Virus record (IMG/VR): IMGVR_UViG_3300047459_000157
Coordinates: 6,851 to 70,850 of that record
DNA from: a virus
Strand: one strand, 5' to 3'
DNA length: 64,000 bases
Positions 28,381 through 62,652 of this stretch are shown here, piece by piece. Each line of letters opens with the position of its first letter. Within the stretch, counting starts at the first letter, position 1. The notes under the pieces were generated by a model. It was not told where the DNA came from. It made no database searches and saw nothing but the letters and a program-made list of their open reading frames with translations. Made by a program: the position numbers and the translations under genes.

Positions 28381-31300
28381 ATGTCAGATTTTTACGTGTC
28401 AAGCGTTACTGGCGAGCCTATTGCGAAGGAGCAAGCTCAAAGTAAAGCTAAAGAATTAGGTGTTACGTTAGATGAGTATTTAGACTCTTATAACTATGAA
28501 TTAGCTCTTCCAAACGAGGCTGACACAGACAATAATGTCGTGGATAACACAGTGCCTGAGTATGTAGAGCCAGAGCCTATTGCATTAGATCCAAACACTC
28601 CAGATCCTTCAGATCAAATGTTCGATGCCTTCGAACTAGAACCAGGTGAACAAGAATTACAAGATGAAAACCTGATAAACAAAAGAACAGCTAAACGTAG
28701 AGAACTCTTTGATAACATTGAAGAGGAAGAAGCTGTATCACTCCTAAAATCATATTTTCCAGACTTTAAATTTGAAGAAGCAACTGTATGGGCTAGCTCA
28801 ACAGGTTTTCCATCTACAGATGCTGTTAGAGTAACTTCACCTGATGGTGAAAATAGTATCAAGCTAGAACTAGATATAGGTATGTTTGATATAGATCCAT
28901 ACATGAAAAATGAAGATGGTACTCCTTACTCACATATAGATGGAAATTATGAAAAATTAAAAAAGTTTATAAAAGAACACAGTGTTGATGTTGAAGGTAC
29001 TTTAGCTGCTCAAGCTAATATAGGTGATACAGAAATAGGTATACAAGATACTAGACAGACAACAACACAACTACCTAGATCAGGTGTAACAGTTACATCA
29101 GAAGAAACATATATAAAAGAATACAAGACTGTATCTGAAATATATAACACTAGTCATTTAGAAGGTGGTGCTAAGATTGATGATAGCGATATAACAGCTA
29201 TAAATGAAAAATATAAATACGATCCTACTACAGGTACTTATGATTTAAGTATATTTGATACAGAAAAAAGAAAAAGAACATCAGGTGGTTATGCTTCGCC
29301 TACCACAGGTATTGTAACCGGTAGTAGCGTTGTAGAGTACGATTATCAACCATATGAAGCTGAACTAGAAGCAACAAGAAAACAGTTAACAGCGAGATCT
29401 GAAAGCTCAGACTATGAGTTTACAGAAGAAGATGTAAAGAAATTTACAGCAATGAATATGAGATCGCAAGATATAACTGAGAAAAAAGCATATGTATTAG
29501 AACAATTTATAGATAGTCAACCTGAAAGCACGCAGGGTATAATGCAAGCTTATAATCTTCAAGAATCTGATAAAGCTCAAAAAGAATCTATAAAGAAAAG
29601 TGTTTTAGCAGAAAATAAACTAAACGAAGCTGTTGAAAAACAAAAGTTTATGGAAGGTTATATTGATTGGTATCAAAACCCAAATCAAACATGGGATTTT
29701 CCAGATGATTATCAAGGTGAAGTAATTCAATTAGCTAACGGCAAGATAACACCTAAAGATCAATACTTAAACTTTATAAACTTTTCACAACAACATGCTG
29801 ATCTTATAGAAGAAGCAAATAGCTTACAAAGAGAAGCTCATGCTTCAGCTGATCAGGTTGCTGATAGAGAAGCTCAATGGGATTTATTAAGAAGAGACTA
29901 TGATGTATGGAGTAAGTCTGGAGCTAATATTGCTTTAGGTACTACTGATATATTAGTTGGTGGTGCATATATGGCTCACAAACTTGCTAGGTTTATTCCT
30001 GGTGTTGGGCTACCGTCTATATTACTAGATGATATTGTGGACGATGCAGCAGCTGATTATTATGGTTGGTCACAAGAAGCTAGAGAAGATTATCAAAGAG
30101 ATATAAAGTTTGAAGATGCTTTTAGTGATGGTAACTTTGGTGAATTTTTTATGGCAGAGATGTCAAAGCAAATACCTATACTAGCATCGATAATAGCTAG
30201 TGGTGGTACATACGCGCCTTATGTTGTTGGTACTTACTCTGGTGGTCAAGAGTGGATGAGACTAGAACATTCTAATAAATACTATGGTACAGACTATGGT
30301 GAAGGTGAAATGTTTATGAGATCTGTTGGTTATGGTACAGCTGAATCTGTATTAGGTACTTTACCTACTGTATGGATATTAGGTAGAGGTTCTAAAATAA
30401 TGACACAAAAGTTTGGTCAAGAGTGGATAAAAGGTGCTGGTAAACAATACCGAAGAAAAATGGCTGGAGAAACTCTTTTAGCTTCACCAATGATAGAAGC
30501 TGGATCTGAAGCTTTAACATCGTTATCTCAAAACATGATAAGTTATGCCGCTGGTGATTTACACTATAGTCAATTAACTCAAGGTATGGATCATGCTGGT
30601 TTTGTGGGTGGTTTAATGGGTTTAACCTTAGGTGGTAGTCAGTTTGCGGTAGGTGCTGCAACAGCTTCAATAACTAGTAGTGCAAACCTAGAACAAATAC
30701 TAGATCTTCAAGAAAGATATAGAAACTTAGAAGATAAAACTTCTCCTGAAGCTAAACAAGTCATTCGTGATATGGACAATTTATATAGAGCTGAAAAAGC
30801 AAAGCTTGATAATATAGATGAAGAAGGTAAAAGAGGTTATGATGCAGCTACAAGACTGCAAGCTGAGATACTTGCTGAAGCTAGAGAAATTGAAGCTAGT
30901 GACAAAAGTAATAAACAAAAACAAAAAGAATTAAAAGATAAACTTGATAAGTTTAATTCATTACAATTTCAAAGAGATACATATAGAAACAAAGATTCTT
31001 TTGGTAACGCTTTTGCTGTATTAGAAACAAATGATAAAGATTTATTTGACGAGCTAAGACAAAAAGCTATTAGATCATTTGATGGTAAAATACCTACAGA
31101 AGATCAAATAAAAGAAACAATGGAAAAGCTTTACTACGATGATAGAGTAGATAAGCAAATAGAAAAAGATATAGATTTAAATAAAAGGCTAGGTAAAAGT
31201 CTTAATATAGTAGATGTTCAAGGTGCTGTTGATGTTGTTAGAGACATTATTAATAGTATTAAAAACAACAAAGACAACTTAGATGAAAATGGTAAACTAA

Positions 31301-34300
31301 CTAAAGAAAAACAAGATCAAATTAATCAGTTAGAACAAGAGATAAATAGCATAAGACAAGGTACTAAAAACGGTTTTTATAAAAAAGACGGAGATAATAA
31401 AACTAAATATCTTATACCAGATAACATGAAGAAAAACCAGAAGGTTTACACTGGTGTTCATGAGTTAGGACATGATGTGTTTGAAGATATAGCTAGAAAA
31501 GATGATTTCTTTTTTGATGACATGTCTGATGCTATATTAGATTATACGAGTAAAGCTAACCCAGGTCTGTATAATAGATTATTAGTTAGATCAAAAGCTA
31601 AAGGTTCTGAAGAACTAGTAATGGAATTTTTAGAAGATATTGCGGAGGGTAGAATAAACTTAGAAAAAGAAGGTTATTTATCTGGAATACTAGGTTATGT
31701 AGTAAATAAAAAATCTGATATACCAATACCTTTTCAAAGTAAACAAGATACTGTAGAGTGGTTAACGTCTCTTGCTAAAAAACTAAAAGACGGTGATATA
31801 AACAAAACCGCTTTGAAAAATGATATAGCAGCTGCTAGAAGACAAAGAAAAGGTGATAGAGTTAAGAAAAAAATAACTGATAAAGATGTTGAAATAAAAT
31901 CATCTGATTCACAAATTGTAACTGATATATATAATGAAAAAGGTGTTAACGGCGCTTTTGAAATTATAGAAAAATATAGAGGTATGGCTAATAAGTTAGC
32001 TAACAAATACAGAGAAGTACCTGGTTACGAAACTTATAAAGACGATTTAATACAAGAGATACTAACTGGTGAAAGAGGTGTATACGGTATGATAACTAAA
32101 TACAACCCTAAATCAGGTGTGCCTTTAGCTGCTTATATAAATAAGTATATTAAATCAAGAACTATAGAAGCTGCTAATAAGATATTAAAAACTAACTTTG
32201 AGTTAGATGTTAGCGAAGCAAGAGGTGTTGCTGCTGCTGAGTCTGAAGTATCTATAGACAATCAGGTACAAAGAAACTCTAAGCTACGAAGACAATTAAA
32301 TATACCTAACGCTGTTATAACTAAAATAAAAGCTGCGGTAGAAAAAACATTTGGTACTAGGTTACCTGATATTAATTCTAAAGACTTTAAAAAATCTTTA
32401 CAAGATAGTTATAGAACAGAGTTGTTTAAAACTATAAAAACCCTTATAGGTACTAGAACTAAGTTTAAAAATTATTTAGACAAAAACTTTGAAGCTATAT
32501 ACAAAGCTTTACCACAATCTGTTATAAACAAAAGATTCAAACCGTTTGCAGAAAACACTGGTAAAAGAGAAAAGACACCACAAGGTAACGCTATATTTAA
32601 AAAGAAAAACATAACCAAAGAAGAGTTTATAAATTATTTCTTAGGTGACAATGTTGGTAATTCAACTAAGGGCACTAGAAAAGATGCGTTAGCAGAAGCA
32701 TTAGCTCAAGAACTAGCTTTTGATGCTACTATGGAAATAGTACAAAGCCCTGAGGTAAGACAAAGAAGAGCTATGATAGCAGAGCTTGATGGTAATGCTA
32801 TTATGGATAATGACATTGCTGTTATAGCTAAACAAATAGATAGAGATCCTTCAGTAAAATTCTCTGATATATCTGTTCCAAAAGGTATTGATCCAAAATC
32901 ATATATTGAAAACACATTTATACCTCAATCAGAAACTCTTGCTCAATTAGTAAGAGATAAAGGATATGAAGAGGTTTATAGTAATTCTTTACTTGAACAA
33001 GGTTTCAATAAAGATGTTTGGAAATTTGTAGATAAATTAATTAAAGAAGGTAAGATAGATTCTGATGGTAATGTTAAATGGAAAGCGTGGGCTAAAAATA
33101 GTCCGATAAAAGAAGTTAACGGTATATATGATGTAATAAATGAAAGAGGAGCTTTAACGAACAAAAGTAGTAAAACGTTAAGAGATAATTATTTAAAAGA
33201 CGTAAAGATACTTGCTAAAGATTTAGGTAGTGATATAATGAATCTTTTTGGTAAAGACATGGAACTACTAGGTTTTGTGTATAGATTATTAGATCCAGCA
33301 GAAAATAAAAAAGATGGAACAAAAGGTCGATACTTTAAAGATAAAGAATCATTAAAGAAAGATTTAAAAAGTAAATTAAACTTACCTTTTGAAGTTGATG
33401 ACGTTAGGTTGATGAACATTAAGTTTGATTTGTTTAAGAAAATACAAAAAATACTTAATCAAGATACTACTAGAAAAAAGAAGTTAGATCAAATAAAAGA
33501 ATTAAAAGATGAAATTGACAACGCTAACGTTGCTAATATTGAATTAGGTATACATATAGCTAAATCAATGGCTAAAGGCAAAATGACTGATGTAGGTATA
33601 TACGACATGCTACAAGCTCAAAGCAATATTGTCGGTGGTTTAAAAGGTACATCAAGATTAGACTTTATACAAATATTAGACGGATCTCAAGCTGTAGGTA
33701 AAAACTATACTAAACACCCTAAGTATAAAGAAGTAAAAAAGTTTATAAAAGATAAGTTTCCTGACAAAACACCTGCTGAAGTAGAAAGCGCTGTTAAATC
33801 AGTATTAAGACCTAAGGGTGAGCACGTTGGTGCTTGGTTAAAAACAGCACAAAAAATTGCTGATGCAATATTTAACTTTAGATATAACAAAAAAGGATTA
33901 AGTGAAGCTGAGTTAGAAAATAGATTAGACAAAGAACTAAGAGAAGCTTATAAAGACCATACACAATATTTAACAGATGTTTATGATACTAAAGCTATAG
34001 ACAAACTACAAATCATTAAAGGTAAGGTTGTTATAGCTGGTTCAACAAGTGGTAAAGCTTTAGCTAGATTAGAAAACACAATTGCTGAAGGTATATTTGG
34101 TGAGTCTCGTGTTGAAAGATCTGCTAAGCTTAAAGCTGAATATGAACTAGGGCTTAAGTTTTCTTCAACAGGTAATACTAATAACTACGTTAATGTTAAA
34201 AGTAAACTAGATTTAATAAATGCTGTTAGAGCTTTACAAGCAAATCCTAATCAACCTCAAAAAGGTATTAGTGTTCTAGACTTTGATGACACATTGGCAA

Positions 34301-37041
34301 ATACAAATAGTCAAGTTATAGTTAATATGCCTGACGGTACTACAAAAGAAATAAACGCTACAGAGTTTGCATTGCAGTCAGCAACTCTTGAAGCTATGGG
34401 TGCTGAGTTTGACTTTAGTCAGTTTAACCAAGTAATAGACGGTAAGAAAGGTCCTTTCTATAATAAAGCAAAATCTCTAAGAGATAAATTTGGTAACACA
34501 GATATATTTGTTTTAACTGCTAGACCACAAGCCGCAGCAAGTGCTATACACGCATTCATGAAAGGTATAGGTTTAGAAATACCTATAGAAAACATAACAG
34601 GTTTAGAAAATGGTACTGCAGACGCAAAAGCAATGTGGATGCTAGATAAAGCAGCTAATGGTTATAATGACTTTTTATTTGCTGATGATGCTATAAAAAA
34701 TGTTAAAGCTGTTAAACAGATATTAGATGCTGTTGATGTTAAATCAAAAGTATATCAAGCTGGTAGAGTAAATCAAAAAGGTCAACCTAATTTAAAGTTT
34801 AGCGAAACAAGTACGCAAACTAAGAGTGATATACTTAATAAAATGATACAGGATAAAAAAGGTATATCTGCTAAAGCTAGATATTCTGATGCTGTTGCTA
34901 AACTAAAAGGTTCTAAAGTTGGTGGATTTAAGTTTTACTTACCACCATCTGCTCAAGACTTTGCTTTAGCTTTATATAACTTCTTACCAAAAGGTAAACA
35001 AGGTAACGCAGCTTGGAAGTTTTTCCTTGACACATTAATAAAACCTTATAACAGAGGTGTTGCTGCTTTAGATATTGCTAGAGAACAAGTAGGTATTGAC
35101 TATGACGCTTTGTTAAAAGATTTTAAAAACGTTAAAAAGAATTTAAACAAAGAAGTACCTAACAGTGCTTTTACATATCAACAAGCGGTTAGAGTTTACT
35201 TATGGCAAAAAGCTGGTTTCAATATACCTGGTATAGCTAAAAGAGATTTGTTATCTATTAATAGAATTATGAAAGCAGATCCTGAATTAAAAGCGTTTGC
35301 TGATAAACTAAGTAAACTAACAGGTATAAAAGAAGGTTATGTTAAACCTGGCGAACATTGGGTTGCTGAGTCTATTTTATCTGATTTAGCTAGTATAACT
35401 GATAAAGTTGGTAGAGCTCAGTTTTTAAAAGAGTTTACAGAAAATGTAGATGAAGTATTTGACAAAGATAATCTAAATAAAATAGAAGCTATATTTGGTA
35501 AAGCACTAAGAGATTCTTTAGAAGATAGTATATACCGTATGAAAACCGGTAGCAATAGACAGTTTGGTTCAAATAAACAGTTGAATGACTTTATGATGTG
35601 GATCAACAACTCTGTTGGTGCTACTATGTTTATAAACTTTAGATCTGCAACATTACAGTCTTTATCTTTATTTAACTATATAAACTACGGTGATAATAAT
35701 ATATTTAAAGCTGCAGCGGCTTTTGCTAACCTACCTAATTATGTAAAACATGTTGTAAAAATATTTAATTCACCTAAGCTAAAACAAAGAAGAACTGGTT
35801 TAAAGCTTAATGTACAAGAAGCTGAAATGGCAGAAGCAGCTAATAGCGGTGGTTTCAAAGGTATGTTAGCTTATTTATTAAAGATAGGTTTTACACCTAC
35901 AAGAGCTGTTGATAGTTTAGCTATTGCAACTGGTGGTGCTACTTTTCTTATAAACAGAACTAAAACATACATAAAGCAAGGCATGCCTAAAGCTGAAGCT
36001 GAAGCAAAAGCATTTGAAGATTTTTCTGAAGTAACAGAAAGAAACCAGCAGTCTGCGGATCCTTCTAAAATATCACCATTACAAGCTGGTCCATTAGGTA
36101 GAACGGTTTTTGCTTGGCAAAATACACCTTTCCAGTATAATAGAGTTATGAAAATGGCAGGTTTAGATTTAGTAAATAGAAGAATAACACCTCCTTACAA
36201 AACTCAATACCAAAGTGATATGTCTAATATTGGTAAAATAGTATACTATGGAGCTTTACAAAACTTTATATTCAATGCTATGCAGACAGGTTTATTCGCG
36301 TTGTTCTTTGATGAAGATGATTTAGCAGATAATGAAAAACAATTAGCTAAAGAGTATGGTCAAAAGTTTAGAGCGGTAAATCAAATGGGTGATACAATAC
36401 TTAGAGGATCTGGTTTACCTGGAGCTATAGTATCTACTATTAAAAATATACTACTACAGTATCACGCGCAAGAAAAGAAAGGTTGGAACGCTGATCACAC
36501 ATATACATTGATAGAAGCTATAAACATGTCACCTACATTAGGTAGTAAAGCAAGGTTAATGTACTCAGGTATACAAACTTACAAGTTTGAAAAAGATGTT
36601 ATAAACGCTAGAGGATTAGCATTAGATAGTCCATTGTGGGATATTATAGGTGCTGAAACTCAAGCAGCAACAAACATACCTTTAAGTAAAGCTATACTGT
36701 TGTTAAGAAATATACAAGGTAGCTTACAAGAAAGACATGCTACTTGGCAAAGAGTTGCTGTTGCTATGGGTTGGCCATATTATCAAATGAATATGGAGTT
36801 ATACCCTGAACACGAAGATATAAAAACTCAAGCAAAAGAAGTACGTAAAGAACAGGGTAAGATAAAAGCTAAAGAAACTAGAGAGAGAAACAAAAAGATT
36901 AAAGACGCTGCGGAAGCATTTATATTAGACAATATGTCTTGGGCTGAAGAAGATGAATACTATGATTTATCCGGTAAAGAAAGACGTGCTTGGATGAAAA
37001 AGAAAGTAGATGAATATCTAAATAATCAAGAAAACAAGTGA
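28381..37041 (+). CDS. Giant multidomain internal virion protein (zincin HExxH, sigma-region-2-like, HAD phosphatase)
   Basis: 2886 aa. HELGH at 31459-31473; DDLIQE..KYNPKSGVPLAAYI at about 32040-32140; HAD motifs DFDDT (34279), VLTAR and FADD; Gly-rich hydrophobic segments near 29930-30670. Confidence 0.75.
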   Translation: MSDFYVSSVTGEPIAKEQAQSKAKELGVTLDEYLDSYNYELALPNEADTDNNVVDNTVPEYVEPEPIALDPNTPDPSDQMFDAFELEPGEQELQDENLINKRTAKRRELFDNIEEEEAVSLLKSYFPDFKFEEATVWASSTGFPSTDAVRVTSPDGENSIKLELDIGMFDIDPYMKNEDGTPYSHIDGNYEKLKKFIKEHSVDVEGTLAAQANIGDTEIGIQDTRQTTTQLPRSGVTVTSEETYIKEYKTVSEIYNTSHLEGGAKIDDSDITAINEKYKYDPTTGTYDLSIFDTEKRKRTSGGYASPTTGIVTGSSVVEYDYQPYEAELEATRKQLTARSESSDYEFTEEDVKKFTAMNMRSQDITEKKAYVLEQFIDSQPESTQGIMQAYNLQESDKAQKESIKKSVLAENKLNEAVEKQKFMEGYIDWYQNPNQTWDFPDDYQGEVIQLANGKITPKDQYLNFINFSQQHADLIEEANSLQREAHASADQVADREAQWDLLRRDYDVWSKSGANIALGTTDILVGGAYMAHKLARFIPGVGLPSILLDDIVDDAAADYYGWSQEAREDYQRDIKFEDAFSDGNFGEFFMAEMSKQIPILASIIASGGTYAPYVVGTYSGGQEWMRLEHSNKYYGTDYGEGEMFMRSVGYGTAESVLGTLPTVWILGRGSKIMTQKFGQEWIKGAGKQYRRKMAGETLLASPMIEAGSEALTSLSQNMISYAAGDLHYSQLTQGMDHAGFVGGLMGLTLGGSQFAVGAATASITSSANLEQILDLQERYRNLEDKTSPEAKQVIRDMDNLYRAEKAKLDNIDEEGKRGYDAATRLQAEILAEAREIEASDKSNKQKQKELKDKLDKFNSLQFQRDTYRNKDSFGNAFAVLETNDKDLFDELRQKAIRSFDGKIPTEDQIKETMEKLYYDDRVDKQIEKDIDLNKRLGKSLNIVDVQGAVDVVRDIINSIKNNKDNLDENGKLTKEKQDQINQLEQEINSIRQGTKNGFYKKDGDNKTKYLIPDNMKKNQKVYTGVHELGHDVFEDIARKDDFFFDDMSDAILDYTSKANPGLYNRLLVRSKAKGSEELVMEFLEDIAEGRINLEKEGYLSGILGYVVNKKSDIPIPFQSKQDTVEWLTSLAKKLKDGDINKTALKNDIAAARRQRKGDRVKKKITDKDVEIKSSDSQIVTDIYNEKGVNGAFEIIEKYRGMANKLANKYREVPGYETYKDDLIQEILTGERGVYGMITKYNPKSGVPLAAYINKYIKSRTIEAANKILKTNFELDVSEARGVAAAESEVSIDNQVQRNSKLRRQLNIPNAVITKIKAAVEKTFGTRLPDINSKDFKKSLQDSYRTELFKTIKTLIGTRTKFKNYLDKNFEAIYKALPQSVINKRFKPFAENTGKREKTPQGNAIFKKKNITKEEFINYFLGDNVGNSTKGTRKDALAEALAQELAFDATMEIVQSPEVRQRRAMIAELDGNAIMDNDIAVIAKQIDRDPSVKFSDISVPKGIDPKSYIENTFIPQSETLAQLVRDKGYEEVYSNSLLEQGFNKDVWKFVDKLIKEGKIDSDGNVKWKAWAKNSPIKEVNGIYDVINERGALTNKSSKTLRDNYLKDVKILAKDLGSDIMNLFGKDMELLGFVYRLLDPAENKKDGTKGRYFKDKESLKKDLKSKLNLPFEVDDVRLMNIKFDLFKKIQKILNQDTTRKKKLDQIKELKDEIDNANVANIELGIHIAKSMAKGKMTDVGIYDMLQAQSNIVGGLKGTSRLDFIQILDGSQAVGKNYTKHPKYKEVKKFIKDKFPDKTPAEVESAVKSVLRPKGEHVGAWLKTAQKIADAIFNFRYNKKGLSEAELENRLDKELREAYKDHTQYLTDVYDTKAIDKLQIIKGKVVIAGSTSGKALARLENTIAEGIFGESRVERSAKLKAEYELGLKFSSTGNTNNYVNVKSKLDLINAVRALQANPNQPQKGISVLDFDDTLANTNSQVIVNMPDGTTKEINATEFALQSATLEAMGAEFDFSQFNQVIDGKKGPFYNKAKSLRDKFGNTDIFVLTARPQAAASAIHAFMKGIGLEIPIENITGLENGTADAKAMWMLDKAANGYNDFLFADDAIKNVKAVKQILDAVDVKSKVYQAGRVNQKGQPNLKFSETSTQTKSDILNKMIQDKKGISAKARYSDAVAKLKGSKVGGFKFYLPPSAQDFALALYNFLPKGKQGNAAWKFFLDTLIKPYNRGVAALDIAREQVGIDYDALLKDFKNVKKNLNKEVPNSAFTYQQAVRVYLWQKAGFNIPGIAKRDLLSINRIMKADPELKAFADKLSKLTGIKEGYVKPGEHWVAESILSDLASITDKVGRAQFLKEFTENVDEVFDKDNLNKIEAIFGKALRDSLEDSIYRMKTGSNRQFGSNKQLNDFMMWINNSVGATMFINFRSATLQSLSLFNYINYGDNNIFKAAAAFANLPNYVKHVVKIFNSPKLKQRRTGLKLNVQEAEMAEAANSGGFKGMLAYLLKIGFTPTRAVDSLAIATGGATFLINRTKTYIKQGMPKAEAEAKAFEDFSEVTERNQQSADPSKISPLQAGPLGRTVFAWQNTPFQYNRVMKMAGLDLVNRRITPPYKTQYQSDMSNIGKIVYYGALQNFIFNAMQTGLFALFFDEDDLADNEKQLAKEYGQKFRAVNQMGDTILRGSGLPGAIVSTIKNILLQYHAQEKKGWNADHTYTLIEAINMSPTLGSKARLMYSGIQTYKFEKDVINARGLALDSPLWDIIGAETQAATNIPLSKAILLLRNIQGSLQERHATWQRVAVAMGWPYYQMNMELYPEHEDIKTQAKEVRKEQGKIKAKETRERNKKIKDAAEAFILDNMSWAEEDEYYDLSGKERRAWMKKKVDEYLNNQENK

Positions 37042-54402: not shown

Positions 54403-55170
54403 CTAAAGATAATCAAGCACTTGCGAGTGATCTACATTATCAATAAGCTTTTTAACAGCTTGTTTCTTGAGTTGTGAAACTCTTACATAAGAGCTACTGC
54501 CTTGCATATTTAATTTAGCTGCAATTTCTTTAGCACTATGCTTATCGCTGTTCAAACCGTAACTTAATGTTAATACATTATATTCTTTCTCATCTAAATA
54601 CTTTCTTAATAAACTATCTAAATAAGCATTTAACATTTCTAAGTTGTACGGTTCAGATTTATCAGGTATTTGATAGATCATATCTTCATCTTGTTTTGGC
54701 TTTTCGTCTATACTTAAGAATATAGAATTAAAAAACATTTCAACCATCTTTTTATCTTTACCAAAGTTCCTACGTATCTCATTTAGTTTATGCTCAGGTA
54801 TTCTCATGTCTCCACGATTAATATCTACAGCTCTACGTATGTGACCTCGTATTCTTTTTGATAAGAAAGATTTTAATGTTTTTTCTTGATCTTCTGATTC
54901 TTTTAAAACCATATAGTCTAATCTATCAACTGCTTTAACTAAGCCAGAATTACCTTCCTGTATAAGGTCTTGTATATCCATTACACCACTTGCTTGTTGT
55001 GATGTTGAGAATTTTCTAGCTAAATTTTCTACCAAAGGAGTAAATCCTATTATCATCTGTTCTCTATTCCAGATAGTAAAGTCTCCATCTTTTACCTTAG
55101 GTAGTTTATAAATTTTATATTCAATGTCTTTTTTCCACCGAATATAATTTTGTACATTATAACTTTTCAT
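54403..55170 (-). CDS. Sigma-70 family RNA polymerase sigma factor
   Basis: Region 2 DLIQEGNSGLVKAVDR...RIR..IRRA; region 4 LDEKE...YGL...KEIA...RVSQLK..AVKKL. Confidence 0.9.
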   Translation of the reverse strand: MKSYNVQNYIRWKKDIEYKIYKLPKVKDGDFTIWNREQMIIGFTPLVENLARKFSTSQQASGVMDIQDLIQEGNSGLVKAVDRLDYMVLKESEDQEKTLKSFLSKRIRGHIRRAVDINRGDMRIPEHKLNEIRRNFGKDKKMVEMFFNSIFLSIDEKPKQDEDMIYQIPDKSEPYNLEMLNAYLDSLLRKYLDEKEYNVLTLSYGLNSDKHSAKEIAAKLNMQGSSSYVRVSQLKKQAVKKLIDNVDHSQVLDYL

Positions 55171-57617: not shown

Positions 57618-57922
57618 AGGTTATTTAATTTATTTTGTATTTGATCTAGTTTTCTTTTTATAATTGCTGCCTTCATGTATTCTTCATTACCTTCGTACAA
57701 ACTCATTAATGTATGTAGTCTAGCCATTTCAGATACTAAGAACTCTTCTTCTGTTTCTTTAAAGGGCAATTGTCCTTTTATCAATTCACCTATAGTCATA
57801 GGAGTATTGTATTGATGCCAGTTTGGGCTTTGAGCTTTTTGTATTAGTTTATCTAATACTTTTTCAGCTAGCTCATCTATTATTTTTTCGTTGTTTATGA
57901 AACCCATATCGTTATTATCCAT
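57614..57922 (-). CDS. Hypothetical protein with UVR-like C-terminal hairpin
   Basis: EEYMKAAIIKRKL resembles the UvrB/C motif. Confidence 0.5.
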   Translation of the reverse strand: MDNNDMGFINNEKIIDELAEKVLDKLIQKAQSPNWHQYNTPMTIGELIKGQLPFKETEEEFLVSEMARLHTLMSLYEGNEEYMKAAIIKRKLDQIQNKLNNL

Positions 57923-57934
57923 TTACTTTCGTAT

Positions 57935-58405
57935 TTAGTCTGTATTAAAATTTTCATATACTTTTTCAAATCTTGTTTTACCATTAGCAAAATCAGTGTA
58001 GTCCATATCTTTCATGTACTTAGATATAATCTTTTCTGGTTTTAATACAAACACACATCTACTACTGTATTGATCGTAGCAACTAATCCATATGTCATCA
58101 GAATCACCTGTCCATATAATATAAGTATATTGGTGATCGATATTTTGATGGTCTGCGTATAAGTAGCAACTGTCATAGTAATGATCATGAACTAGCTTTG
58201 CAGCTAATGCGCTACCGTCTTGTCTAGCATTAGTGTGACACCAGTTTGCTAACTGTACACCTTGCCATTCAGGGTAACCATCATGATGTAAATACATATT
58301 TACATAGCTATTGTCAGCGTAAACTGAAGGGTTAGCAGCAAAACCTAAATCGTTTTGGCTTGCGTAGTCTCTATCTACTACCATAGTTAAATTTCTTGTA
58401 CTCAT
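57935..58405 (-). CDS. Hypothetical early protein
   Basis: MSTR...YLHHDGYP motif; 156 aa. Confidence 0.6.
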   Translation of the reverse strand: MSTRNLTMVVDRDYASQNDLGFAANPSVYADNSYVNMYLHHDGYPEWQGVQLANWCHTNARQDGSALAAKLVHDHYYDSCYLYADHQNIDHQYTYIIWTGDSDDIWISCYDQYSSRCVFVLKPEKIISKYMKDMDYTDFANGKTRFEKVYENFNTD

Positions 58406-58555
58406 TTTATTCCGCCTTTATTTATTGTTAAACGTATTTCTCTGATATAATCATGGAACTTACTCCACTTGTCAGACTCTTCTTCAAAGTATGAATGTTC
58501 GATTCTTCGTTTTATTTCTTTTTCTATAAGAGATAACAAAGTCACCATTACATCT

Positions 58556-58870
58556 TTACACATCATCTCTTTCTCTGAATAATGCGAAGCCTAGCTTTGC
58601 GTAATTTATTATATCGCCAAACCTACTAATCATAGGTTCTGCCTTGTTTAGATCATGGTTGCTAACGTGAGCTGCAACTGAGCTAATTTGCTTATCGAAG
58701 TAAGCATACCACACAACTAGAGGATCTACATTTAGCTTTTTAGCCGTAGATTTAAAGTTGTTAAGTACATCATTATCCTGCATAGTATATTCAGGACCTT
58801 TCTTGTTCATTGTTTCTTGCGCGTAATGATCTAACTCATGTACTAACGCGTTAAATTGTTCTGTCGTCAT
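58556..58870 (-). CDS. Nucleotide-modification-associated domain 1 (DUF1599)-like protein
   Basis: KKGPEY...NNF...K...GDIINYA pattern. Confidence 0.55.
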   Translation of the reverse strand: MTTEQFNALVHELDHYAQETMNKKGPEYTMQDNDVLNNFKSTAKKLNVDPLVVWYAYFDKQISSVAAHVSNHDLNKAEPMISRFGDIINYAKLGFALFRERDDV

Positions 58871-58871
58871 A

Positions 58872-59153
58872 TTAGTCTAGTAATGTCATATAAGCTGAAG
58901 CATTGTTGGTTCTAAACCAGTCTAAGCCTCTTCTCATATCGTTCTGTAAATTAATTGTATCAGGGTGCATTATATCATCGCTAAATTGTGTAGCTATTGT
59001 AAACTCTGCACCTTTAATAAAGTCATACATACTTAGCTCAGCACCTGTTAACTTGCATTTGTCACCTGTAAAAGGGTTAGCTACTGTATCACCTTCGTTA
59101 TACCACATACCGTGGAACCATTTAGGTTTTTCTTGTTTATTTTTTGTCTTCAT
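58872..59153 (-). CDS. Hypothetical early protein
   Basis: 93 aa; NPFTG..L..ELSMYD.IKG...AYMTLLD. Confidence 0.6.
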   Translation of the reverse strand: MKTKNKQEKPKWFHGMWYNEGDTVANPFTGDKCKLTGAELSMYDFIKGAEFTIATQFSDDIMHPDTINLQNDMRRGLDWFRTNNASAYMTLLD

Positions 59154-59595
59154 AGTAATCGCCTGAGTCTAATAACTCATCTTTTAATTCGTTAAACTTT
59201 TCTTCGTATATGTCTTGCCACCATTGTTCAAGCTCATGGTTAAATTCGTATTCCATATCGTCCCATATATGAGACTCTACCCACACATCTTGACCATCAG
59301 TCAATGCTTCAATAGCTTGTTCTGACCATGTAGTATAATCTTCATACTGATAACCATCTTGTGAAATATAAGGTTTCTCATCATAAGTACACCAGTATAT
59401 ATCGTAGCCATCAGCTGTTGATTCACTGTATACTTTTAGGTTGTGTGATTTATCTGACCATGTAGTTTCAGTATCTAGTTTACCACCATATTCTGTAGTT
59501 ATATATTCTAATAGCCAAGGTGCATCTGGTTCTTCCATGATACCATCTGCTTGTAGCTTATCGTTGACAATATCGTCTGTTAGTAATTCTGCCAT
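59137..59595 (-). CDS. Highly acidic early protein (possible DNA mimic)
   Basis: 152 aa, strongly D/E-rich with many W/Y residues. Confidence 0.55.
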   Translation of the reverse strand: MAELLTDDIVNDKLQADGIMEEPDAPWLLEYITTEYGGKLDTETTWSDKSHNLKVYSESTADGYDIYWCTYDEKPYISQDGYQYEDYTTWSEQAIEALTDGQDVWVESHIWDDMEYEFNHELEQWWQDIYEEKFNELKDELLDSGDYYEDKK

Positions 59596-59831
59596 TATTT
59601 ATTAATTATATTATCGCCATACATAAAGTCATAAGGTGACATTTTGTAACTGCTTAGATTAGAATACGTTATTAGTTCTGATAAGTCTCTCATTGTAAGC
59701 TCTGACCAAGTCATCTTAGACATAAGAGTATACTTAAGTAATTTAGCGCTGTCGTATTTTCTAGCACTAGCTTGCAACTCAGTTTTAACATTGGGTTTTA
59801 GCAAGTCGTAAATTGATTTTAGTTTATTCAT
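59595..59831 (-). CDS. Hypothetical early protein
   Basis: 78-aa ORF directly downstream of a promoter-motif copy. Confidence 0.55.
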   Translation of the reverse strand: MNKLKSIYDLLKPNVKTELQASARKYDSAKLLKYTLMSKMTWSELTMRDLSELITYSNLSSYKMSPYDFMYGDNIINK

Positions 59832-59852
59832 TGTTATTATTTATTATTTAAT

Positions 59853-59886
59853 TATATTATCCGACATGCGTCGTATTTACATTGTA
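59853..59886 (-). promoter_or_regulatory. Early promoter-like motif copy 1
   Basis: Minus strand TACAATGTA-AATACGA-N8-GGATAATATA. Confidence 0.75.
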
Positions 59887-59889
59887 TTG

Positions 59890-59936
59890 TGGACGTGGCA
59901 GGAGTCGAACCTGCACTTTAGTACCGTAGCACGCCC
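59890..59936 (-). ncRNA. 47-nt tRNA-like mini RNA (acceptor stem plus T-arm, no D or anticodon arm)
   Basis: GGGCGTG-CTACGGTACTAAAGT-GCAGG-TTCGACT-CCTGC-CACGTCC-A. Confidence 0.65.
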
Positions 59937-59940
59937 ATAA

Positions 59941-60196
59941 TCCCTCACTTGTTTTCAACTCAAACGTTACTGAGTATTCCCGTGAGGGAGACAGAGATAG
60001 AAGTTTGGGACTGGTAGTTTCTAGAATTGTCGTTTATACCCAACTTTCTGTTTTGACGCACCACGATCGAGCTAATGCCCCGGTAATCGCCTAACGTGAC
60101 CAGTATGCCGCCACTCTGTCTTATTTCAACCGAAGTTAATCGGATTTACTGCGACTTACTACCTGCTTTGTACCACATGGGTGCATCGCTGCGCAT
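59941..60196 (-). ncRNA. Candidate structured non-coding RNA
   Basis: GC-richer stretch without a long ORF. Stems at 59941-48/59982-89, 59990-96/60114-20 and 59999-60009/60039-49. Strand is assumed from context. Confidence 0.45.
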
Positions 60197-60199
60197 ATA

Positions 60200-60346
60200 T
60201 TATTTTGTTTTATTATAGATCTCTAATGCTTTTTCAATATCTTGAATATCATAATCTATTAATATTTTATAAGCTTTTTTAACATTACTTACTATTGCTT
60301 TATTTTCTTCTTGCATCTCGTGCCATTTTTTTATTGAATCACTCAT
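60200..60346 (-). CDS. Small 48-aa protein (not in ORF track)
   Basis: MSDSIKKWHEMQEE...IYNKTK; start overlaps the upstream stop. Confidence 0.5.
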   Translation of the reverse strand: MSDSIKKWHEMQEENKAIVSNVKKAYKILIDYDIQDIEKALEIYNKTK

Positions 60347-60557
60347 CGTAGTATTTATTAGTTGTTACATCTAGTTTATTAGCTATGTGACGGCCGACCA
60401 GTCTCATGAGATAACTATGAGCTTCGTTTATTGTATTGCCCTCACTGGTTTCTGGTAAGAACTGGCCGATCTGCCAATCACATTGCTTGTAAATTTCATC
60501 TATTATATCTGTAGCTATTTCTTGTGCTACTACATCCATTTGTTTTATCTTTGCCAT
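60339..60557 (-). CDS. Hypothetical early protein
   Basis: 72-aa ORF in the early cluster. Confidence 0.55.
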   Translation of the reverse strand: MAKIKQMDVVAQEIATDIIDEIYKQCDWQIGQFLPETSEGNTINEAHSYLMRLVGRHIANKLDVTTNKYYDE

Positions 60558-60561
60558 ATTA

Positions 60562-60774
60562 TTATCTTAAGCATGTTCCGTAACCTCGTCTAGCGCCAAG
60601 CTTTCTTACACGTTTCGCCTGACTTTTTGGCATGATTTGAATAGTATTGCCGGTTTTATGGTATGTGATTGCCACACAGCCATATGGTTCAGTGGTCGAA
60701 CAGTCGACGCAAGAGGTATAACCTAGTGCGAGGCGCTGCGGAGGTATTATATTTTTACATTTACATTTTGTCAT
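60562..60774 (-). CDS. DksA/TraR-like zinc-finger protein
   Basis: CKC...IPPQRLAL...CVDC matches the TraR-type C4 finger pattern. Confidence 0.6.
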   Translation of the reverse strand: MTKCKCKNIIPPQRLALGYTSCVDCSTTEPYGCVAITYHKTGNTIQIMPKSQAKRVRKLGARRGYGTCLR

Positions 60775-60778
60775 CGTA

Positions 60779-60812
60779 TATATTATCCGAATTACTTCGT
60801 ATTTGTATTGTA
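60779..60812 (-). promoter_or_regulatory. Early promoter-like motif copy 2
   Basis: TACAATACA-AATACGA-N8-GGATAATATA. Confidence 0.75.
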
Positions 60813-61199
60813 ATTTCTAAGATAGTATTCTAACATATAGTTCATTCTTGCAAGCTGAGACCATATTAAAGCTCTCGCTGTGCCTACATATTCGTTAGTT
60901 TTTAAACCATTTTCAGTTAAGAAAGTAGTTCTTCTGTTCTGCTTGTATTGTTTGTTTAGTTGATATGGTGAGTAAGTACCGTTCTGTTTTCTTACTGTAC
61001 CACTTTTAAAGCAAGCTAATCTAAGATTACCGTTGTAGTATCTTGGGTGTGATGGAACAGGAAATTCAAATTCTCTTGTACCATTTAACGCTTGTCTTTG
61101 CGTAGTTACTTCTTTAATATTATACTTAAGGAGCAATTGTCTTGCAAAAGCATTTTCTAACGCTTCTTGTTCTTGTTGCCAAGTTTGTTTATTTCTCAT
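60792..61199 (-). CDS. Hypothetical early protein
   Basis: 135-aa ORF downstream of the tRNA. Confidence 0.55.
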   Translation of the reverse strand: MRNKQTWQQEQEALENAFARQLLLKYNIKEVTTQRQALNGTREFEFPVPSHPRYYNGNLRLACFKSGTVRKQNGTYSPYQLNKQYKQNRRTTFLTENGLKTNEYVGTARALIWSQLARMNYMLEYYLRNYNTNTK

Positions 61200-61219
61200 A
61201 GTTATTTAATTTAATTTAG

Positions 61220-61294
61220 TTGCGGAAGGTGGATTCGAACCACCGACCTCAAGGTTATGAGCCTTGCGAGCTGACCAGACTGCTCTATTCCGCC
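61220..61294 (-). tRNA. tRNA-Met (CAT), initiator-like
   Basis: Full cloverleaf GGCGGAA-TA-GAGC..GCTC-G-CAAGG-CTCATAA-CCTTG-AGGTC-GGTGG-TTCGAAT-CCACC-TTCCGCA-A. 1:72 mismatch; CCA not encoded. Confidence 0.9.
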
Positions 61295-61527
61295 GTATAT
61301 TCTTTGCGCCATGACATATCATCGCCATGTGGTGCATATTTATTCCAGTGATCTACTACTTTGTTAGTCCAACCACCATATTCTTTGTCAACTGCTTCAT
61401 TAATTAGCTCTAGTTGTCGTCTACCTGACTCGTAAGATCTATTGTCATCACTCATACAGTAAGTAAAGTCATGTTGCTTGATCATTTCGAAAGCAGGTAA
61501 GTCGTCGTAGTATATTTTTTTATGCAT
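61285..61527 (-). CDS. Hypothetical early protein
   Basis: HDFTY.MSDD.R.YE.G motif; the stop codon lies inside the tRNA 5' end. Confidence 0.55.
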   Translation of the reverse strand: MHKKIYYDDLPAFEMIKQHDFTYCMSDDNRSYESGRRQLELINEAVDKEYGGWTNKVVDHWNKYAPHGDDMSWRKEYTAE

Positions 61528-61705
61528 AAGTTCTATTATTTATTATTGTAAAAGCAGGGTAACTTCTGTATTTCTTGTCCGCACTGTCATAATATCTAGT
61601 GTTTGGAGCAAATTCTAGCACTTCGATGTCACCATTAGCATATTTTAGTATAGCGTTTTGTGGTTGGCCGAGTTGATTGTAGTTTGTTAATTTTAGTTTA
61701 TTCAT
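61520..61705 (-). CDS. Hypothetical early protein
   Basis: 61 aa, directly downstream of a promoter-motif copy. Confidence 0.5.
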   Translation of the reverse strand: MNKLKLTNYNQLGQPQNAILKYANGDIEVLEFAPNTRYYDSADKKYRSYPAFTIINNRTYA

Positions 61706-61720
61706 ATCATTTATTTGTAT

Positions 61721-61752
61721 TATTATCCAAATATCTTCGTATTTAAATTGTA
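61721..61752 (-). promoter_or_regulatory. Early promoter-like motif copy 3
   Basis: TACAATTTA-AATACGA-N8-GGATAATA. Confidence 0.75.
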
Positions 61753-62499: not shown

Positions 62500-62501
62500 A
62501 G

Positions 62502-62580: not shown

Positions 62581-62652
62581 GTTACTTGCTCAACTTTATT
62601 TATACTCGAGAGAACACAGCTCGACGCCGAGTGAGATGTAAAGAATTAGTTA

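What the first reader, a model, noticed from the sequence alone, without database searches (positions are those of the whole stretch)
31897..32868. Sigma-factor region-2-like domain embedded in the giant ejection protein
Seen: IIEKYRGMANKLANKY...DDLIQEILTG..GVYGMITKYNPKSGVPLAAYINKYIKSRTIEA. This parallels sigma-70 region 2 (L..Y..LV..IA..Y...EDLIQEG..GL..A..KFDP.KG..F..YA...IR..I). Inference: the virion injects a sigma-like factor that redirects host RNA polymerase at the start of infection. This would be an alternative to the virion RNA polymerases of N4 and crAss-like phages. It fits the non-host promoter-like motif in front of the earliest genes, and the separate stand-alone sigma (54403-55170) could then serve late genes, giving a two-sigma cascade.
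Basis: partly seen in the sequence, partly recalled or inferred. Interest (0 to 1): 0.85.

Follow-up and report, generated by a model that had tools for sequence, protein, structure and literature searches.

The report
Sigma-like domain inside giant phage protein
A giant virion-type protein of an uncultured marine phage carries a real but stripped-down copy of the RNA-polymerase-binding part of a bacterial sigma factor, so the phage may bring its own transcription starter into the cell, though that role is untested.

Summary
Window 31897-32868 lies in frame inside a 2886-aa ORF (28381-37041) and is a conserved 324-aa module found in 510 protein clusters, nearly all within proteins of 2000-3500 aa. 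Its first ~100 residues are a divergent sigma-70 region-2 (sigma2) domain. Sequence signals are weak but always in the same register. The AlphaFold2 model's best PDB matches are sigma2 domains (16 of the first 17 rows, Z 6.3-8.7). A complex prediction docks it on the beta' clamp helices through the region-2.2 equivalent (0.77 against 0.00 for controls). The remaining ~200 residues form a confident fold with no match, and no sigma3 or sigma4 was found. The giant protein is partly homologous to annotated structural proteins of cultured relatives. A motif, AAYACGA-N8-GGATAAT, is clustered upstream of the stand-alone sigma gene here and in the relatives where it was found. However, motif presence does not track the detectable module. 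The stand-alone sigma is far better conserved and could read the motif. Injection, proteolytic release and promoter recognition are all untested. My searches of the paper library found no embedded sigma domain in a virion or polyvalent protein. I rate it a new variant of a known kind.

The parts
28381..37041 (+). Giant ORF, 2886 aa (P0002), the last large gene of the structural operon and the carrier of the module.
   Evidence: Terminase, portal and virion-protein PHROGs lie upstream. Syntenic giant ORFs occur in MW202828 (3859 aa), elemoA (3694 aa, 'structural protein') and phi38:1 gp101 (1691 aa, 'structural protein').
29818..30780 (+). Residues 480-800, the part homologous to annotated structural proteins of cultured relatives.
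   Evidence: A profile built from 26 uncultured homologues hits phi38:1 gp101 (E 5.2e-35) and elemoA gp90 (E 7e-29).
31459..31473 (+). HExxH motif (residues 1027-1031), about 145 aa upstream of the module. Candidate zincin-like processing peptidase.
   Evidence: HExLH is the family consensus, with the E nearly invariant. The fold is not confirmed: a PDB profile search gave no peptidase hit.
31903..32202 (+). Sigma2-like domain (module residues 3-102), equivalent to sigma-70 regions 2.1-2.4.
32194..32274 (+). Low-confidence, variable linker (module residues 100-126).
   Evidence: pLDDT below 50 for residues 100-126. This is the gapped, variable part of the alignment.
32275..32868 (+). Second domain of the module (residues 127-324): helical with a beta-hairpin, and holding all 13 invariant columns of the module. 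No known fold.
   Evidence: pLDDT 90.5, pTM 0.86. Best VIA Z 4.7, Foldseek nothing, Atlas 0.76. Invariant columns.
32857..32865 (+). K-F-S tripeptide closing the module. Two more lie at 34156-34164 and 34795-34803. Candidate cleavage sites.
   Evidence: 3 KFS found against 0.7 expected from composition. The family consensus ends in FKFS. Cleavage itself is untested.
34813..37038 (+). C-terminal 742 aa, the most widely conserved part of the giant protein.
   Evidence: Homologous in 215 of 227 uncultured giant proteins. Not detected in the three cultured giants.
54403..55170 (-). Stand-alone phage sigma factor, 255 aa, with regions 2 and 4.
   Evidence: Sigma70_r2 E 4.3e-6, Sigma70_r4 E 5.6e-5, PHROG 351 E 6.4e-21. 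53-72% identical across the 27 relatives aligned.
57914..63076 (-). Span holding six exact copies of AATACGA-N8-GGATAAT, all on the minus strand, at 57914-57935, 59856-59877, 60782-60803, 61722-61743, 62928-62949 and 63055-63076. Candidate phage-specific promoters.
   Evidence: With up to 2 mismatches allowed there were 8 matches (6 of them exact) against 0.63 expected; 0 of 100 shuffles reached 8. It is the only non-coding bipartite motif with 6 or more exact copies in the window.

Best explanation
The stretch encodes a two-domain cargo module of a polyvalent, virion-type giant protein from a podophage of Flavobacteriia.

Shown or strongly indicated:
- Module residues ~3-102 are a diverged homologue of the sigma2 domain of sigma-70-family factors.
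- Residues ~127-324 are a separate, conserved domain of unknown fold.
- There is no sigma3 or sigma4.

Inferred mechanism:
- The giant protein is packaged and leaves the capsid with the DNA.
- The module is freed by the adjacent HExxH peptidase at K-F-S-type sites.
- Its sigma2-like domain clamps onto the beta' clamp helices of host core RNA polymerase.
- It acts as a minimal sigma, comparable to T4 gp55, and helps the first polymerases open the phage's own promoters. These are AAYACGA-N8-GGATAAT, whose downstream half is a near-consensus -10 hexamer, gATAAT.
- Those promoters lie upstream of the stand-alone sigma gene, which then takes over.

My odds for each step: sigma2 homology ~0.9; binding of core RNAP ~0.65; delivery from the virion ~0.6; promoter-specific initiation at the motif ~0.3.
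For: Fold:
- The AF2 model has pLDDT 82.9.
- In the VIA search of 48,161 chains, 26 of 50 listed rows are sigma factors or RNAP initiation complexes, including 16 of the first 17. Examples: SigB Z 8.3, rmsd 2.6 over 86 aa; sigma32 Z 7.6, 2.6 over 90; sigma70 fragment 1sig Z 6.6, 2.5 over 86; the T4 gp45-dependent activation complex chain F Z 7.9. All cover model residues ~3-102.

Sequence, always in the same register:
-.
- Two relatives' giant ORFs also hit PF04542, at 20.5 and 19.3 bits.
- The module's N-terminal HMM picks the stand-alone sigma's region 2 as its best hit outside the giant ORFs in 4 of 5 genomes (E 0.002-0.022).
- BFVD rows 5, 6, 13 and 16 are phage sigma factors (Foldseek probability 0.82-0.93, E 0.18-0.61).

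Core binding:
- ipSAE was 0.77, 0.77 and 0.76, against a best control of 0.00. That mark was reached by 58 of 80 solved complexes and 2 of 110 mismatched pairs.
- The runs agree in at least 92% of contacts, and partner pLDDT is at least 84.
- The interface is beta' residues 288-319 and 337-345 with module residues 18-24, 42-67 and 96, i.e. the region-2.1/2.2 equivalent.

Conservation: the helix equivalent to regions 2.3-2.4 is the best conserved part of the domain. In 50 sequences, position 77 is L in 48, position 80 is aromatic or His in all 50 (Y 39, F 6, H 3, W 2), position 88 is R or K in all 50, position 90 is I in 43, position 91 is E in 41, and position 95 is R in 40.

Virion link.

Promoter context:
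- The motif has 6 exact copies, all on one strand.
- It has 1-10 copies on one strand in 18 of 19 near-complete module-bearing relatives, with 0 control hits.
- It is absent from the two cultured relatives tested, which also lack both sigmas.
- In the window and in all 18 of those relatives, the stand-alone sigma gene lies on the same strand 2-9 kb downstream of the cluster. Two of the 18 need the contig to be read as circular.
- The Bacteroidota -7 box TAnnTTTG (consensus recalled) is not enriched: 101 found, 99 expected.
Against: - No sigma3 or sigma4. The second domain matches nothing.
- The Pfam score is below the gathering cut-off, and only 1 of 50 members hits at E <= 1.
- Foldseek found nothing at E <= 0.001.
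- VIA Z values of 6-8.7 fall in the range the tool calls common for helical models.
- By my own alignment to recalled E. coli numbering, the equivalents of sigma70 W433 and W434 are not conserved: K/S/G and F/Q/L.
- The complex pass may reflect the model's memory of solved sigma-beta' structures, and the beta' used was a stand-in (F. johnsoniae).
- Motif presence does not track the module profile: 12 of 17 module-negative and 13 of 21 module-positive sigma-bearing genomes have exact copies.
- The motif is nearly invariant while the sigma2-like domain is only 19-65% identical to the window's, and in one genome it is undetectable by HMM. The stand-alone sigma is 53-84% identical. A conserved reader is the simpler explanation.
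- In four motif-bearing genomes checked in full, the second domain of the module is not detectable, so it is unlikely to read the upstream half of the motif.
- A host-like TAATTTTG box at 63706-63713 (-) could start host-driven read-through.
- Virion status rests on partial homology and synteny only.
- Cleavage is inferred from a tripeptide.
Confidence: 0.4

Rival explanations
1. RNAP-binding module without promoter specificity. The sigma2-like domain binds the beta' clamp helices of core RNAP as a decoy or tether. It would either block host sigma binding (host shut-off) or hold polymerase at the entering DNA end. The AAYACGA-N8-GGATAAT promoters would be read by the well-conserved stand-alone phage sigma or by a host factor.
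For: - Predicted beta' docking.
- No sigma4 or other recognisable DNA-reading domain.
- The motif does not track the detectable module.
- The stand-alone sigma is present in every motif-bearing genome examined and is 53-84% identical.
- The W433/W434 equivalents are not conserved.
Against: - The region-2.3/2.4 equivalent, not the beta' face, is the best conserved surface of the domain.
- A decoy on the clamp helices would also block the phage's own sigma.
- The sigma gene lies downstream of the motif cluster in the window and in 18 of 18 relatives, so something must act before it is made.
- The 8-9 bp spacing between the two motif halves is far shorter than the ~17 bp that a sigma2-plus-sigma4 factor normally needs (recalled).
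Confidence: 0.3
2. The domain acts in the producing cell, not after ejection. The giant protein is made late, and its sigma-like domain would modulate or sequester RNAP late in infection, or serve assembly. It would be cut off or remain inert in the virion.
For: - The gene sits in the late structural operon.
- No evidence of ejection was obtained.
- The middle of the giant protein is variable cargo, while only the C-terminal 742 aa is broadly conserved.
Against: - The fusion to a virion-type protein is kept in 510 representative clusters. For a factor needed only in the cytoplasm this is hard to explain when a free sigma gene already exists.
- Giant multi-domain phage proteins with HExxH peptidases are thought to be delivered with the DNA (Iyer et al. 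2017, passages seen).
Confidence: 0.1
3. Fold resemblance only. The domain is a helical bundle that happens to look like sigma2, or an ancient derivative that has lost RNAP binding, and it serves as a structural spacer in the giant protein.
For: - Every sequence score is sub-threshold.
- Foldseek found nothing at E <= 0.001.
- VIA Z below 9 for a helical model.
Against: - Five independent sequence tests agree on the same family and register.
- 16 of the first 17 fold rows are sigma-related.
- Docking uses the canonical face.
- The conservation pattern G-x-R-G-[ILV]-L...Y-x-P...P-L-A-x-Y-I-N parallels region 2.2-2.3.
Confidence: 0.1

Closest known systems
T4 gp55, the late sigma factor of phage T4 (biology recalled; its complex 7d7d appears)
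   Same: A minimal sigma consisting essentially of a sigma2-like domain, with no sigma4, that binds the beta' clamp helices and reads a -10-type element. The entry 7d7d chain F is row 3 of the fold search (Z 7.9).
   Different: gp55 is a free 185-aa protein made after infection and needs gp33 and the sliding clamp. Here the domain is embedded at residue ~1175 of a 2886-aa virion-type protein and is followed by a 200-aa domain of unknown fold. No sequence-level membership was tested.
Stand-alone phage-encoded sigma-70-family factors, including this phage's own (54403-55170)
   Same: Homologous region 2: hhalign P 0.0025, reciprocal HMM hits at E 0.002-0.022. They share the pattern L-x-x-[FY]-[LI]-[SN]-K-x-I-[RK] in the region-2.3 equivalent.
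   Different: The stand-alone factor has region 4 and passes the Pfam cut-off. The embedded domain has neither, and it diverges much faster.
Virion RNA polymerases of N4-like phages (gp50) and crAss-like phages (phi14:2 gp66) (biology recalled; N4 RNAP-peptidase fusions seen in Iyer 2017 passages)
   Same: A giant protein at the end of the structural module, packaged and ejected to start early transcription from non-host promoters. In N4-like phages it is fused to HExxH peptidase domains.
   Different: Those carry the catalytic polymerase itself. Here PF00940 gave no match (its control rang nowhere, so this shows little), and I judge, without a test, that no unassigned stretch of the ORF is long enough for a polymerase. 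Only a polymerase-binding initiation-factor domain is present, so host core RNAP would still do the synthesis.
Polyvalent proteins of phages and conjugative elements (Iyer et al. 2017, PMC5512222)
   Same: A multi-domain giant protein with a conserved HExxH motif, shuffled cargo domains (a HAD-like DxDxT motif here; P-loop kinase Pfam domains in relatives) and a proposed role in jump-starting transcription.
   Different: The word 'sigma' does not occur in the main text of that paper (supplements not seen). A sigma domain would be a new cargo type. The zincin fold here is inferred from the motif only.
T4 Alt, an injected ADP-ribosyltransferase (Iyer 2017 passage)
   Same: A head-packaged protein injected with the DNA that retargets host RNAP to phage early promoters.
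   Different: Alt is an enzyme that modifies RNAP. Here the proposed action is stoichiometric binding as a sigma-like subunit.

Membership tests
Sigma-70 family (Pfam Sigma70_r2, PF04542) | Score at or above the curated Pfam gathering cut-off (24 bits) | tested here: not met
   14 bits and 16.4 bits. Relatives' giant ORFs score 20.5 and 19.3 bits. Only 1 of 50 members hits at E <= 1.
Sigma-70 family | Sigma2 fold (helical domain of regions 2.1-2.4) | tested here: met
   AF2 model pLDDT 82.9. 26 of 50 VIA rows are sigma-related, 16 of the first 17. Z 6.3-8.7, rmsd 2.5-3.3 over 82-92 aa for most. This rests on a predicted model, not a solved one.
Sigma-70 family | Region 2.2 face that binds the beta' clamp helices | tested here: inconclusive
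   Complex prediction 0.77 against 0.00 for controls, using the canonical face. The pass may come from likeness to solved complexes, and no binding was measured.
Sigma-70 family | Region 2.3/2.4 residues for melting and -10 recognition (aromatic Y430, W433, W434 in E. coli numbering, recalled) | tested here: inconclusive
   The Y430 equivalent is Y, F or W in 47 of 50 and H in 3. The W433 and W434 equivalents are not conserved. The helix is the best conserved part of the domain.
Sigma-70 family | Region 4 (sigma4 helix-turn-helix that binds -35 and the beta flap) | tested here: inconclusive
   No Sigma70_r4 hit. hhalign of the second domain against the phage sigma family gave E 0.69. No sigma-related row in the fold searches of the second domain. 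A very diverged equivalent cannot be excluded.
Sigma-70 family | Free, dissociable subunit | tested here: not met
   Encoded inside a 2886-aa ORF with no stop. Release by proteolysis is only inferred.
T4 gp55-like minimal sigma | Sigma2-only architecture acting with core RNAP | tested here: inconclusive
   Fold row 3 (7d7d_F, Z 7.9, rmsd 7.5 over 114 aa). No sequence comparison with gp55 was made.
Polyvalent proteins (Iyer et al. 2017) | Giant multi-domain phage protein with a zincin-like HExxH peptidase and variable effector domains | tested here: inconclusive
   The HExxH motif is conserved. The cargo is variable between relatives. The peptidase fold is not confirmed.
Polyvalent proteins / internal virion proteins | Packaged in the virion and delivered with the DNA | not testable with these tools
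   Only indirect support: residues 480-800 are homologous to annotated structural proteins phi38:1 gp101 and elemoA gp90, and the gene is syntenic.
N4-like virion RNA polymerase | Single-subunit RNAP catalytic domain (PF00940) | tested here: inconclusive
   No match in the genome at E <= 10, but the control search rang in none of 14 genomes, so sensitivity is unproven.

The most novel reading that the evidence does not exclude
An abundant clade of marine Flavobacteriia podophages packages a minimal, sigma2-only initiation factor inside a giant polyvalent ejection protein. After entry it is cut free, loads onto host core RNA polymerase and bootstraps transcription from phage-specific promoters (AAYACGA-N8-GGATAAT) that the host sigma cannot read. 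These include the promoter(s) that express the phage's full-length sigma, which then takes over. This would be a third solution to the early-transcription problem, beside using host promoters and bringing a virion RNA polymerase.
Probability: 0.3. Interest if true: 0.88.

Novelty: new variant of a known kind. Interest (0 to 1): 0.68.

Why it matters
Phages are known to solve early transcription in two ways: they use host-type promoters, or they inject their own RNA polymerase (N4, crAss-like, phiKZ). An injected sigma-like subunit would be a cheaper third way. It would add a new cargo class to polyvalent proteins and give a natural example of a sigma2-only factor. The family is large: 510 clusters at 50% identity and 641 clusters at 90% identity. 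The mechanism would therefore concern a major group of viruses of marine Flavobacteriia. It is directly testable with a ~100-aa domain, a beta' fragment and a 22-bp promoter. The 200-aa second domain is a confidently predicted fold with no match to any solved structure searched and no known function.

Tried and rejected
Similarity to cultured phages:
- Megablast and tblastn of the module and of the whole giant protein against 50,697 phage records gave no match.
- HMMs of the module against the giant proteins of MW202828 and elemoA found nothing significant.

Domain scans:
- A Pfam scan of nine overlapping pieces of the giant protein gave only sub-threshold noise. This included a weak DUF2608 hit over the HAD-like region.
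- A PDB profile search of the HExxH region returned no peptidase. The best hit, an enterotoxin chain at E 0.1, is a chance match.

Second domain of the module:
- No fold match by VIA (best Z 4.7) or by Foldseek.
- The ESM Atlas gave one unnamed cluster at 0.76, which is uninformative.

Alternative polymerase: PF00940 found nothing in the genome, but its control also rang nowhere.

Promoter motifs:
- My first motif pattern had the wrong spacing (N9) and gave 0 matches. I corrected it to N8.
- A second, 'late' promoter motif suggested by two intergenic regions (AAAGCGT...) was not supported: 2 matches against 1.5 expected.
- An exhaustive 6-mer/gap/6-mer count found no other non-coding bipartite motif with 6 or more copies in the window.
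- Host-type TTTG-N17-21-TAnnTTTG gave 6 matches against 3.4 expected, none in the early region.

Telling the module from the stand-alone sigma as the motif's reader:
- No genome with one but not the other was found.
- G028, which seemed to lack the sigma, has it cut by the contig end.
- G045, G048 and G055, which seemed to lack the module, have a diverged sigma2-like domain.
- G065 shows one only by eye.
- G017 has the module and the sigma but no motif that I could find.
- G076 uses a variant, ACACGA-N7-TTGATAAT.

RNA evidence: the 20 runs listed are kept as contigs only. The four laid showed no usable starts or ends, and contigs of 67-71 kb in 'RNA' libraries suggest DNA carry-over. This gives no evidence on expression or transcription starts.

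Literature:
- Searches, and term look-ups in PMC5512222, PMC7824862, PMC7318152 and PMC13282480, found no report of a sigma domain inside a virion or polyvalent protein.
- Supplementary domain tables of Iyer et al. 2017 could not be seen and might list one.

Correction: an earlier count said 7 of 11 PDB hits were sigma factors. The correct count is 6 of 11.
Full report
**What is there**

Window 31897-32868 translates without a stop into 324 residues that contain the quoted peptide. It is residues 1173-1496 of a single 2886-aa ORF, 28381-37041 on the plus strand. The ORF closes a structural operon. This operon has a large terminase (9458-11677), a portal (11679-14105) and three proteins that match PHROGs annotated 'virion structural protein'. 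The window is 64 kb of a 70,850-bp virus record that CheckV rates as complete.

By terminase and portal, the nearest cultured phages are podophages of Flavobacteriia: Flavobacterium elemo phages, Cellulophaga phages including phi38:1, and Tenacibaculum and Maribacter phages. An uncultured record, MW202828, is 62% identical in the terminase.

**The module is a real, conserved unit**

- A word-indexed search found 641 proteins at E <= 0.001, among candidates of 1587-5051 aa.
- An exhaustive HMMER scan of 1.84 billion representatives found 510, of which 378 are at E <= 1e-10.
- I aligned 50 copies taken from the window and 49 IMG/VR loci.
- The first 105 residues are 19-65% identical to the window's. 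The last 204 are 40-57% identical and hold all 13 invariant columns.

**Is the first part sigma region 2?**

Sequence tests:
- Pfam Sigma70_r2: E 0.044, 14 bits against a cut-off of 24, covering profile positions 2-64 of 71.
- PHROG 351 'RNA polymerase sigma factor': E 4.4e-4.
- A six-frame search of the whole genome with PF04542 gave exactly two hits: the stand-alone sigma (27.6 bits) and this ORF (16.4 bits, E 4.5e-4).
- In 40 relatives' records, 35 had a hit. Nearly all were the ~250-aa sigma, but in two records the best hit lay in the giant ORF, at 20.5 and 19.3 bits.
- A profile of the whole module against PDB sequences gave 8 hits at E <= 10, 4 of them sigma factors.
- The N-terminal profile alone gave 11 hits, 6 of them sigma factors: best E 0.014, sigmaK 0.056, FliA 0.1, RpoS 0.29. 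All aligned in the same register.
- hhalign of the N-terminal alignment against 28 copies of the phage's own sigma family gave P 0.0025 over 69 columns. The C-terminal alignment gave nothing.
- The N-terminal HMM picked the stand-alone sigma's region 2 as its best hit outside the giant ORFs in 4 of 5 genomes scanned in full (E 0.002-0.022).

Against: only the window's own copy, 1 of 50, hits Sigma70_r2 at E <= 1 in a Pfam-wide scan. No single score is significant by the usual standards.

**Fold**

AlphaFold2 on the 50-row alignment gave pLDDT 82.9. The model has two domains joined by a disordered stretch, residues 100-126.

Foldseek found nothing at E <= 0.001 in PDB or BFVD. In BFVD, rows 5, 6, 13 and 16 are phage sigma factors with probability 0.82-0.93.

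The search that does not depend on Foldseek aligned the model to 48,161 chains. Of the 50 rows listed, 26 are sigma-related:
- 20 have titles that name a sigma factor.
- 6 are RNAP initiation complexes in which I take chain F to be sigma.
- 16 of the first 17 rows are sigma-related.

All of these cover model residues ~3-102. Typical values are Z 6.3-8.7 and rmsd 2.5-3.3 over 82-92 residues. The tool warns that such Z values are common for helical models. What persuades me is that one family dominates the list and that this agrees with the sequence tests.

**Second domain**

The second domain was folded alone and gave pLDDT 90.5 and pTM 0.86. It matched nothing:
- best VIA Z 4.7;
- no Foldseek hit;
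- one unnamed Atlas cluster at 0.76.

The module is therefore a sigma2-like domain plus an unknown domain. Neither sigma3 nor sigma4 was found.

**Does it look functional?**

Column counts were taken over 50 sequences. Mapping them to sigma-70 by my own alignment (E. coli numbers recalled) gives:
- L51, E54 (40 of 50), G58 (41), R60 (44) and G61 (47), with a 3-residue insertion, parallel region 2.2.
- Y69 (Y or F in 50) parallels F419.
- L77 (48) parallels F427.
- Y80 (Y, F, H or W in 50) parallels Y430.
- The W433 and W434 equivalents are not kept.
- The helix equivalent to regions 2.3-2.4 is the best conserved part of the domain.

A complex prediction was run with residues 200-380 of F. johnsoniae beta' as a stand-in host:
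- It scored 0.77, 0.77 and 0.76, against 0.00 for the best of three controls.
- That mark was reached by 58 of 80 solved complexes and 2 of 110 mismatched pairs.
- The runs agree in at least 92% of contacts, and partner pLDDT is at least 84.
- The interface is beta' residues 288-319 and 337-345 with module residues 18-24, 42-67 and 96. That is the clamp helices against the region-2.1/2.2 equivalent.

Because sigma-beta' complexes are solved, this shows likeness to them. It does not show that this copy binds.

**The carrier protein**

The whole protein has no BLAST-level match in cultured phages. Syntenic giant ORFs close the structural operon in MW202828 (3859 aa), elemoA (3694 aa) and phi38:1 (gp101, 1691 aa). 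The last two are annotated 'structural protein', and for phi38:1 the annotation is by similarity to phi18:1 gp101.

A profile of residues 480-800 built from uncultured homologues hits phi38:1 gp101 at E 5.2e-35 and elemoA gp90 at E 7e-29. The protein is therefore partly homologous to annotated virion proteins.

- The C-terminal 742 aa is shared by 215 of 227 uncultured giants but was not found in the cultured ones.
- The middle is variable cargo.
- An HExxH motif lies ~145 aa upstream of the module and is conserved in the family. Its peptidase fold could not be confirmed.
- Three K-F-S tripeptides (0.7 expected) stand at the end of the module and on both sides of a HAD-like stretch with a DxDxT motif.
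- Some relatives carry P-loop kinase Pfam domains instead.

This matches the 'polyvalent protein' picture of Iyer et al. 2017: a peptidase-processed, DNA-co-delivered multi-domain protein, with N4-type virion RNAPs as one cargo. In that paper's main text the word 'sigma' does not occur.

**The promoter-like motif**

AATACGA-N8-GGATAAT occurs six times exactly, all on the minus strand between 57914 and 63076. Allowing 2 mismatches gives 8 matches against 0.63 expected, and 0 of 100 shuffles reach 8. It is the only non-coding bipartite motif with 6 or more exact copies in the window.

With one mismatch allowed:
- It has 1-10 copies, always on one strand and clustered, in 18 of 19 near-complete relatives that carry the module.
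- The reversed-pattern control has none.
- The two cultured relatives tested have none. Both also lack both sigmas.

In the window and in all 18 of those relatives, the stand-alone sigma gene lies on the same strand 2-9 kb downstream of the cluster. Two of the 18 need the contig to be read as circular.

The downstream half contains gATAAT, five of six bases of the classical -10 hexamer. The Bacteroidota -7 box TAnnTTTG (consensus recalled) is not enriched: 101 found against 99 expected. The two halves are 8-9 bp apart, far closer than a -35/-10 pair.

**What speaks against linking the motif to the embedded domain**

Among 38 further near-complete genomes found through the stand-alone sigma:
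- The module profile hit 21, and exact motif copies were found in 25.
- The motif was present in 12 of the 17 module-negative genomes and in 13 of the 21 module-positive ones.

I then scanned four of the negatives in full:
- Three (G045, G048, G055) have a diverged sigma2-like domain at the same place in the giant ORF (iterated HMM, E 6.4e-10 to 4.5e-8).
- The fourth (G065) shows one only by eye.
- None has a detectable second domain.

The sigma2-like domain may therefore be general in the clade. However, it evolves fast while the motif is nearly invariant. The stand-alone sigma, present in every motif-bearing genome I examined, is 53-84% identical. A conserved reader for a conserved motif is the simpler assumption.

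G076 uses the variant ACACGA-N7-TTGATAAT, and in G017 I found no motif at all. A host-like TAATTTTG box at 63706-63713 (minus strand) could also start host-driven read-through. RNA data gave no transcription starts.

**Reading**

I take sigma2 homology as established at about 0.9. I take binding of core RNAP as likely and virion delivery as more likely than not. An actual promoter-specifying role at the motif gets roughly 0.3.

The gene order argues that something must act before the stand-alone sigma is made. A virion-borne relative of that sigma's region 2 would solve this. But a decoy or tether role, with the free sigma or a host factor reading the motif, fits the conservation data at least as well.

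**Novelty**

Five literature searches and look-ups in four papers found virion RNA polymerases, injected RNAP-modifying enzymes and free phage sigmas. None reported a sigma domain embedded in a virion or polyvalent protein. Supplements were closed.

I class the finding as a new variant of a known kind: virion-delivered transcription take-over, with a new cargo.

Noticed in passing
window 31459-31473 (P0002 residues 1027-1031): An HExxH motif is conserved across the family (consensus HExLH) about 145 aa upstream of the module. It is a likely zincin-type processing peptidase as in polyvalent proteins, but a PDB profile search gave no peptidase hit.
   Followed up: partly
window 32857-32865, 34156-34164, 34795-34803: Three h-K-F-S-[DSE] tripeptides (0.7 expected) bracket the module's end, an unknown 430-aa domain and a HAD-like domain. 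They are possible cleavage sites that would release separate cargo proteins. The median is 2 KFS per giant homologue (range 0-5, n = 204).
   Followed up: partly
window ~34258-34800 (P0002 ~1960-2140): A HAD-phosphatase-like stretch with a DxDxT motif at residue 1967. Pfam gave only a weak DUF2608 hit (E 0.027). Homologous in 96 of 227 uncultured giants. Some relatives instead carry P-loop kinase domains (PF06414, PF07931, PF13671).
   Followed up: partly
window 32275-32868: A 200-aa domain with 13 invariant residues (including a V-x-K-T-x-G-T-x-L-P block), predicted with pLDDT 90.5. It has no fold match in PDB and no named Atlas neighbour. Its function is unknown, and it was not detectable in four clade members that keep the sigma2-like domain.
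   Followed up: partly
window 54332-54402 (minus strand): The 71-bp gap just upstream of the stand-alone sigma gene holds a degenerate look-alike of the motif: AATACGT, a spacer one base longer, then GTGTAAT.
   Followed up: no
window 63706-63713 (minus strand): A host-like -7 box, TAATTTTG, lies about 20 nt upstream of a small ORF at the far upstream end of the minus-strand arm. It could be a host-sigmaA promoter.
   Followed up: no
window 61200-61284 and 59890-60200 (minus strand): tRNA-like sequences sit between the early small ORFs, for example one with a TTCGAATCC T-loop at 61200-61284. They were not scanned with ARAGORN.
   Followed up: no
G076:C1:31317-33996 (loci L222): This relative uses a variant motif, TTGACACGA-N7-TTGATAAT (7 copies on one strand), again upstream of its sigma gene. 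The GATAAT core is constant while the flanking bases differ.
   Followed up: partly
G017 (loci L120-L123): This relative has the module and the sigma, but I found no repeated motif of this type. Part of the window protein's N-terminal region (residues 483-1156) lies there in a separate 1599-aa ORF at the contig end.
   Followed up: no
window 1259-7158: Many short repeated words from the two Thr-rich repeat genes dominate the bipartite-motif count.
   Followed up: no
runs X7, X11 laid on window 57000-63500: Libraries labelled RNA hold contigs of 67-71 kb that match this phage clade. They probably contain phage DNA.
   Followed up: no
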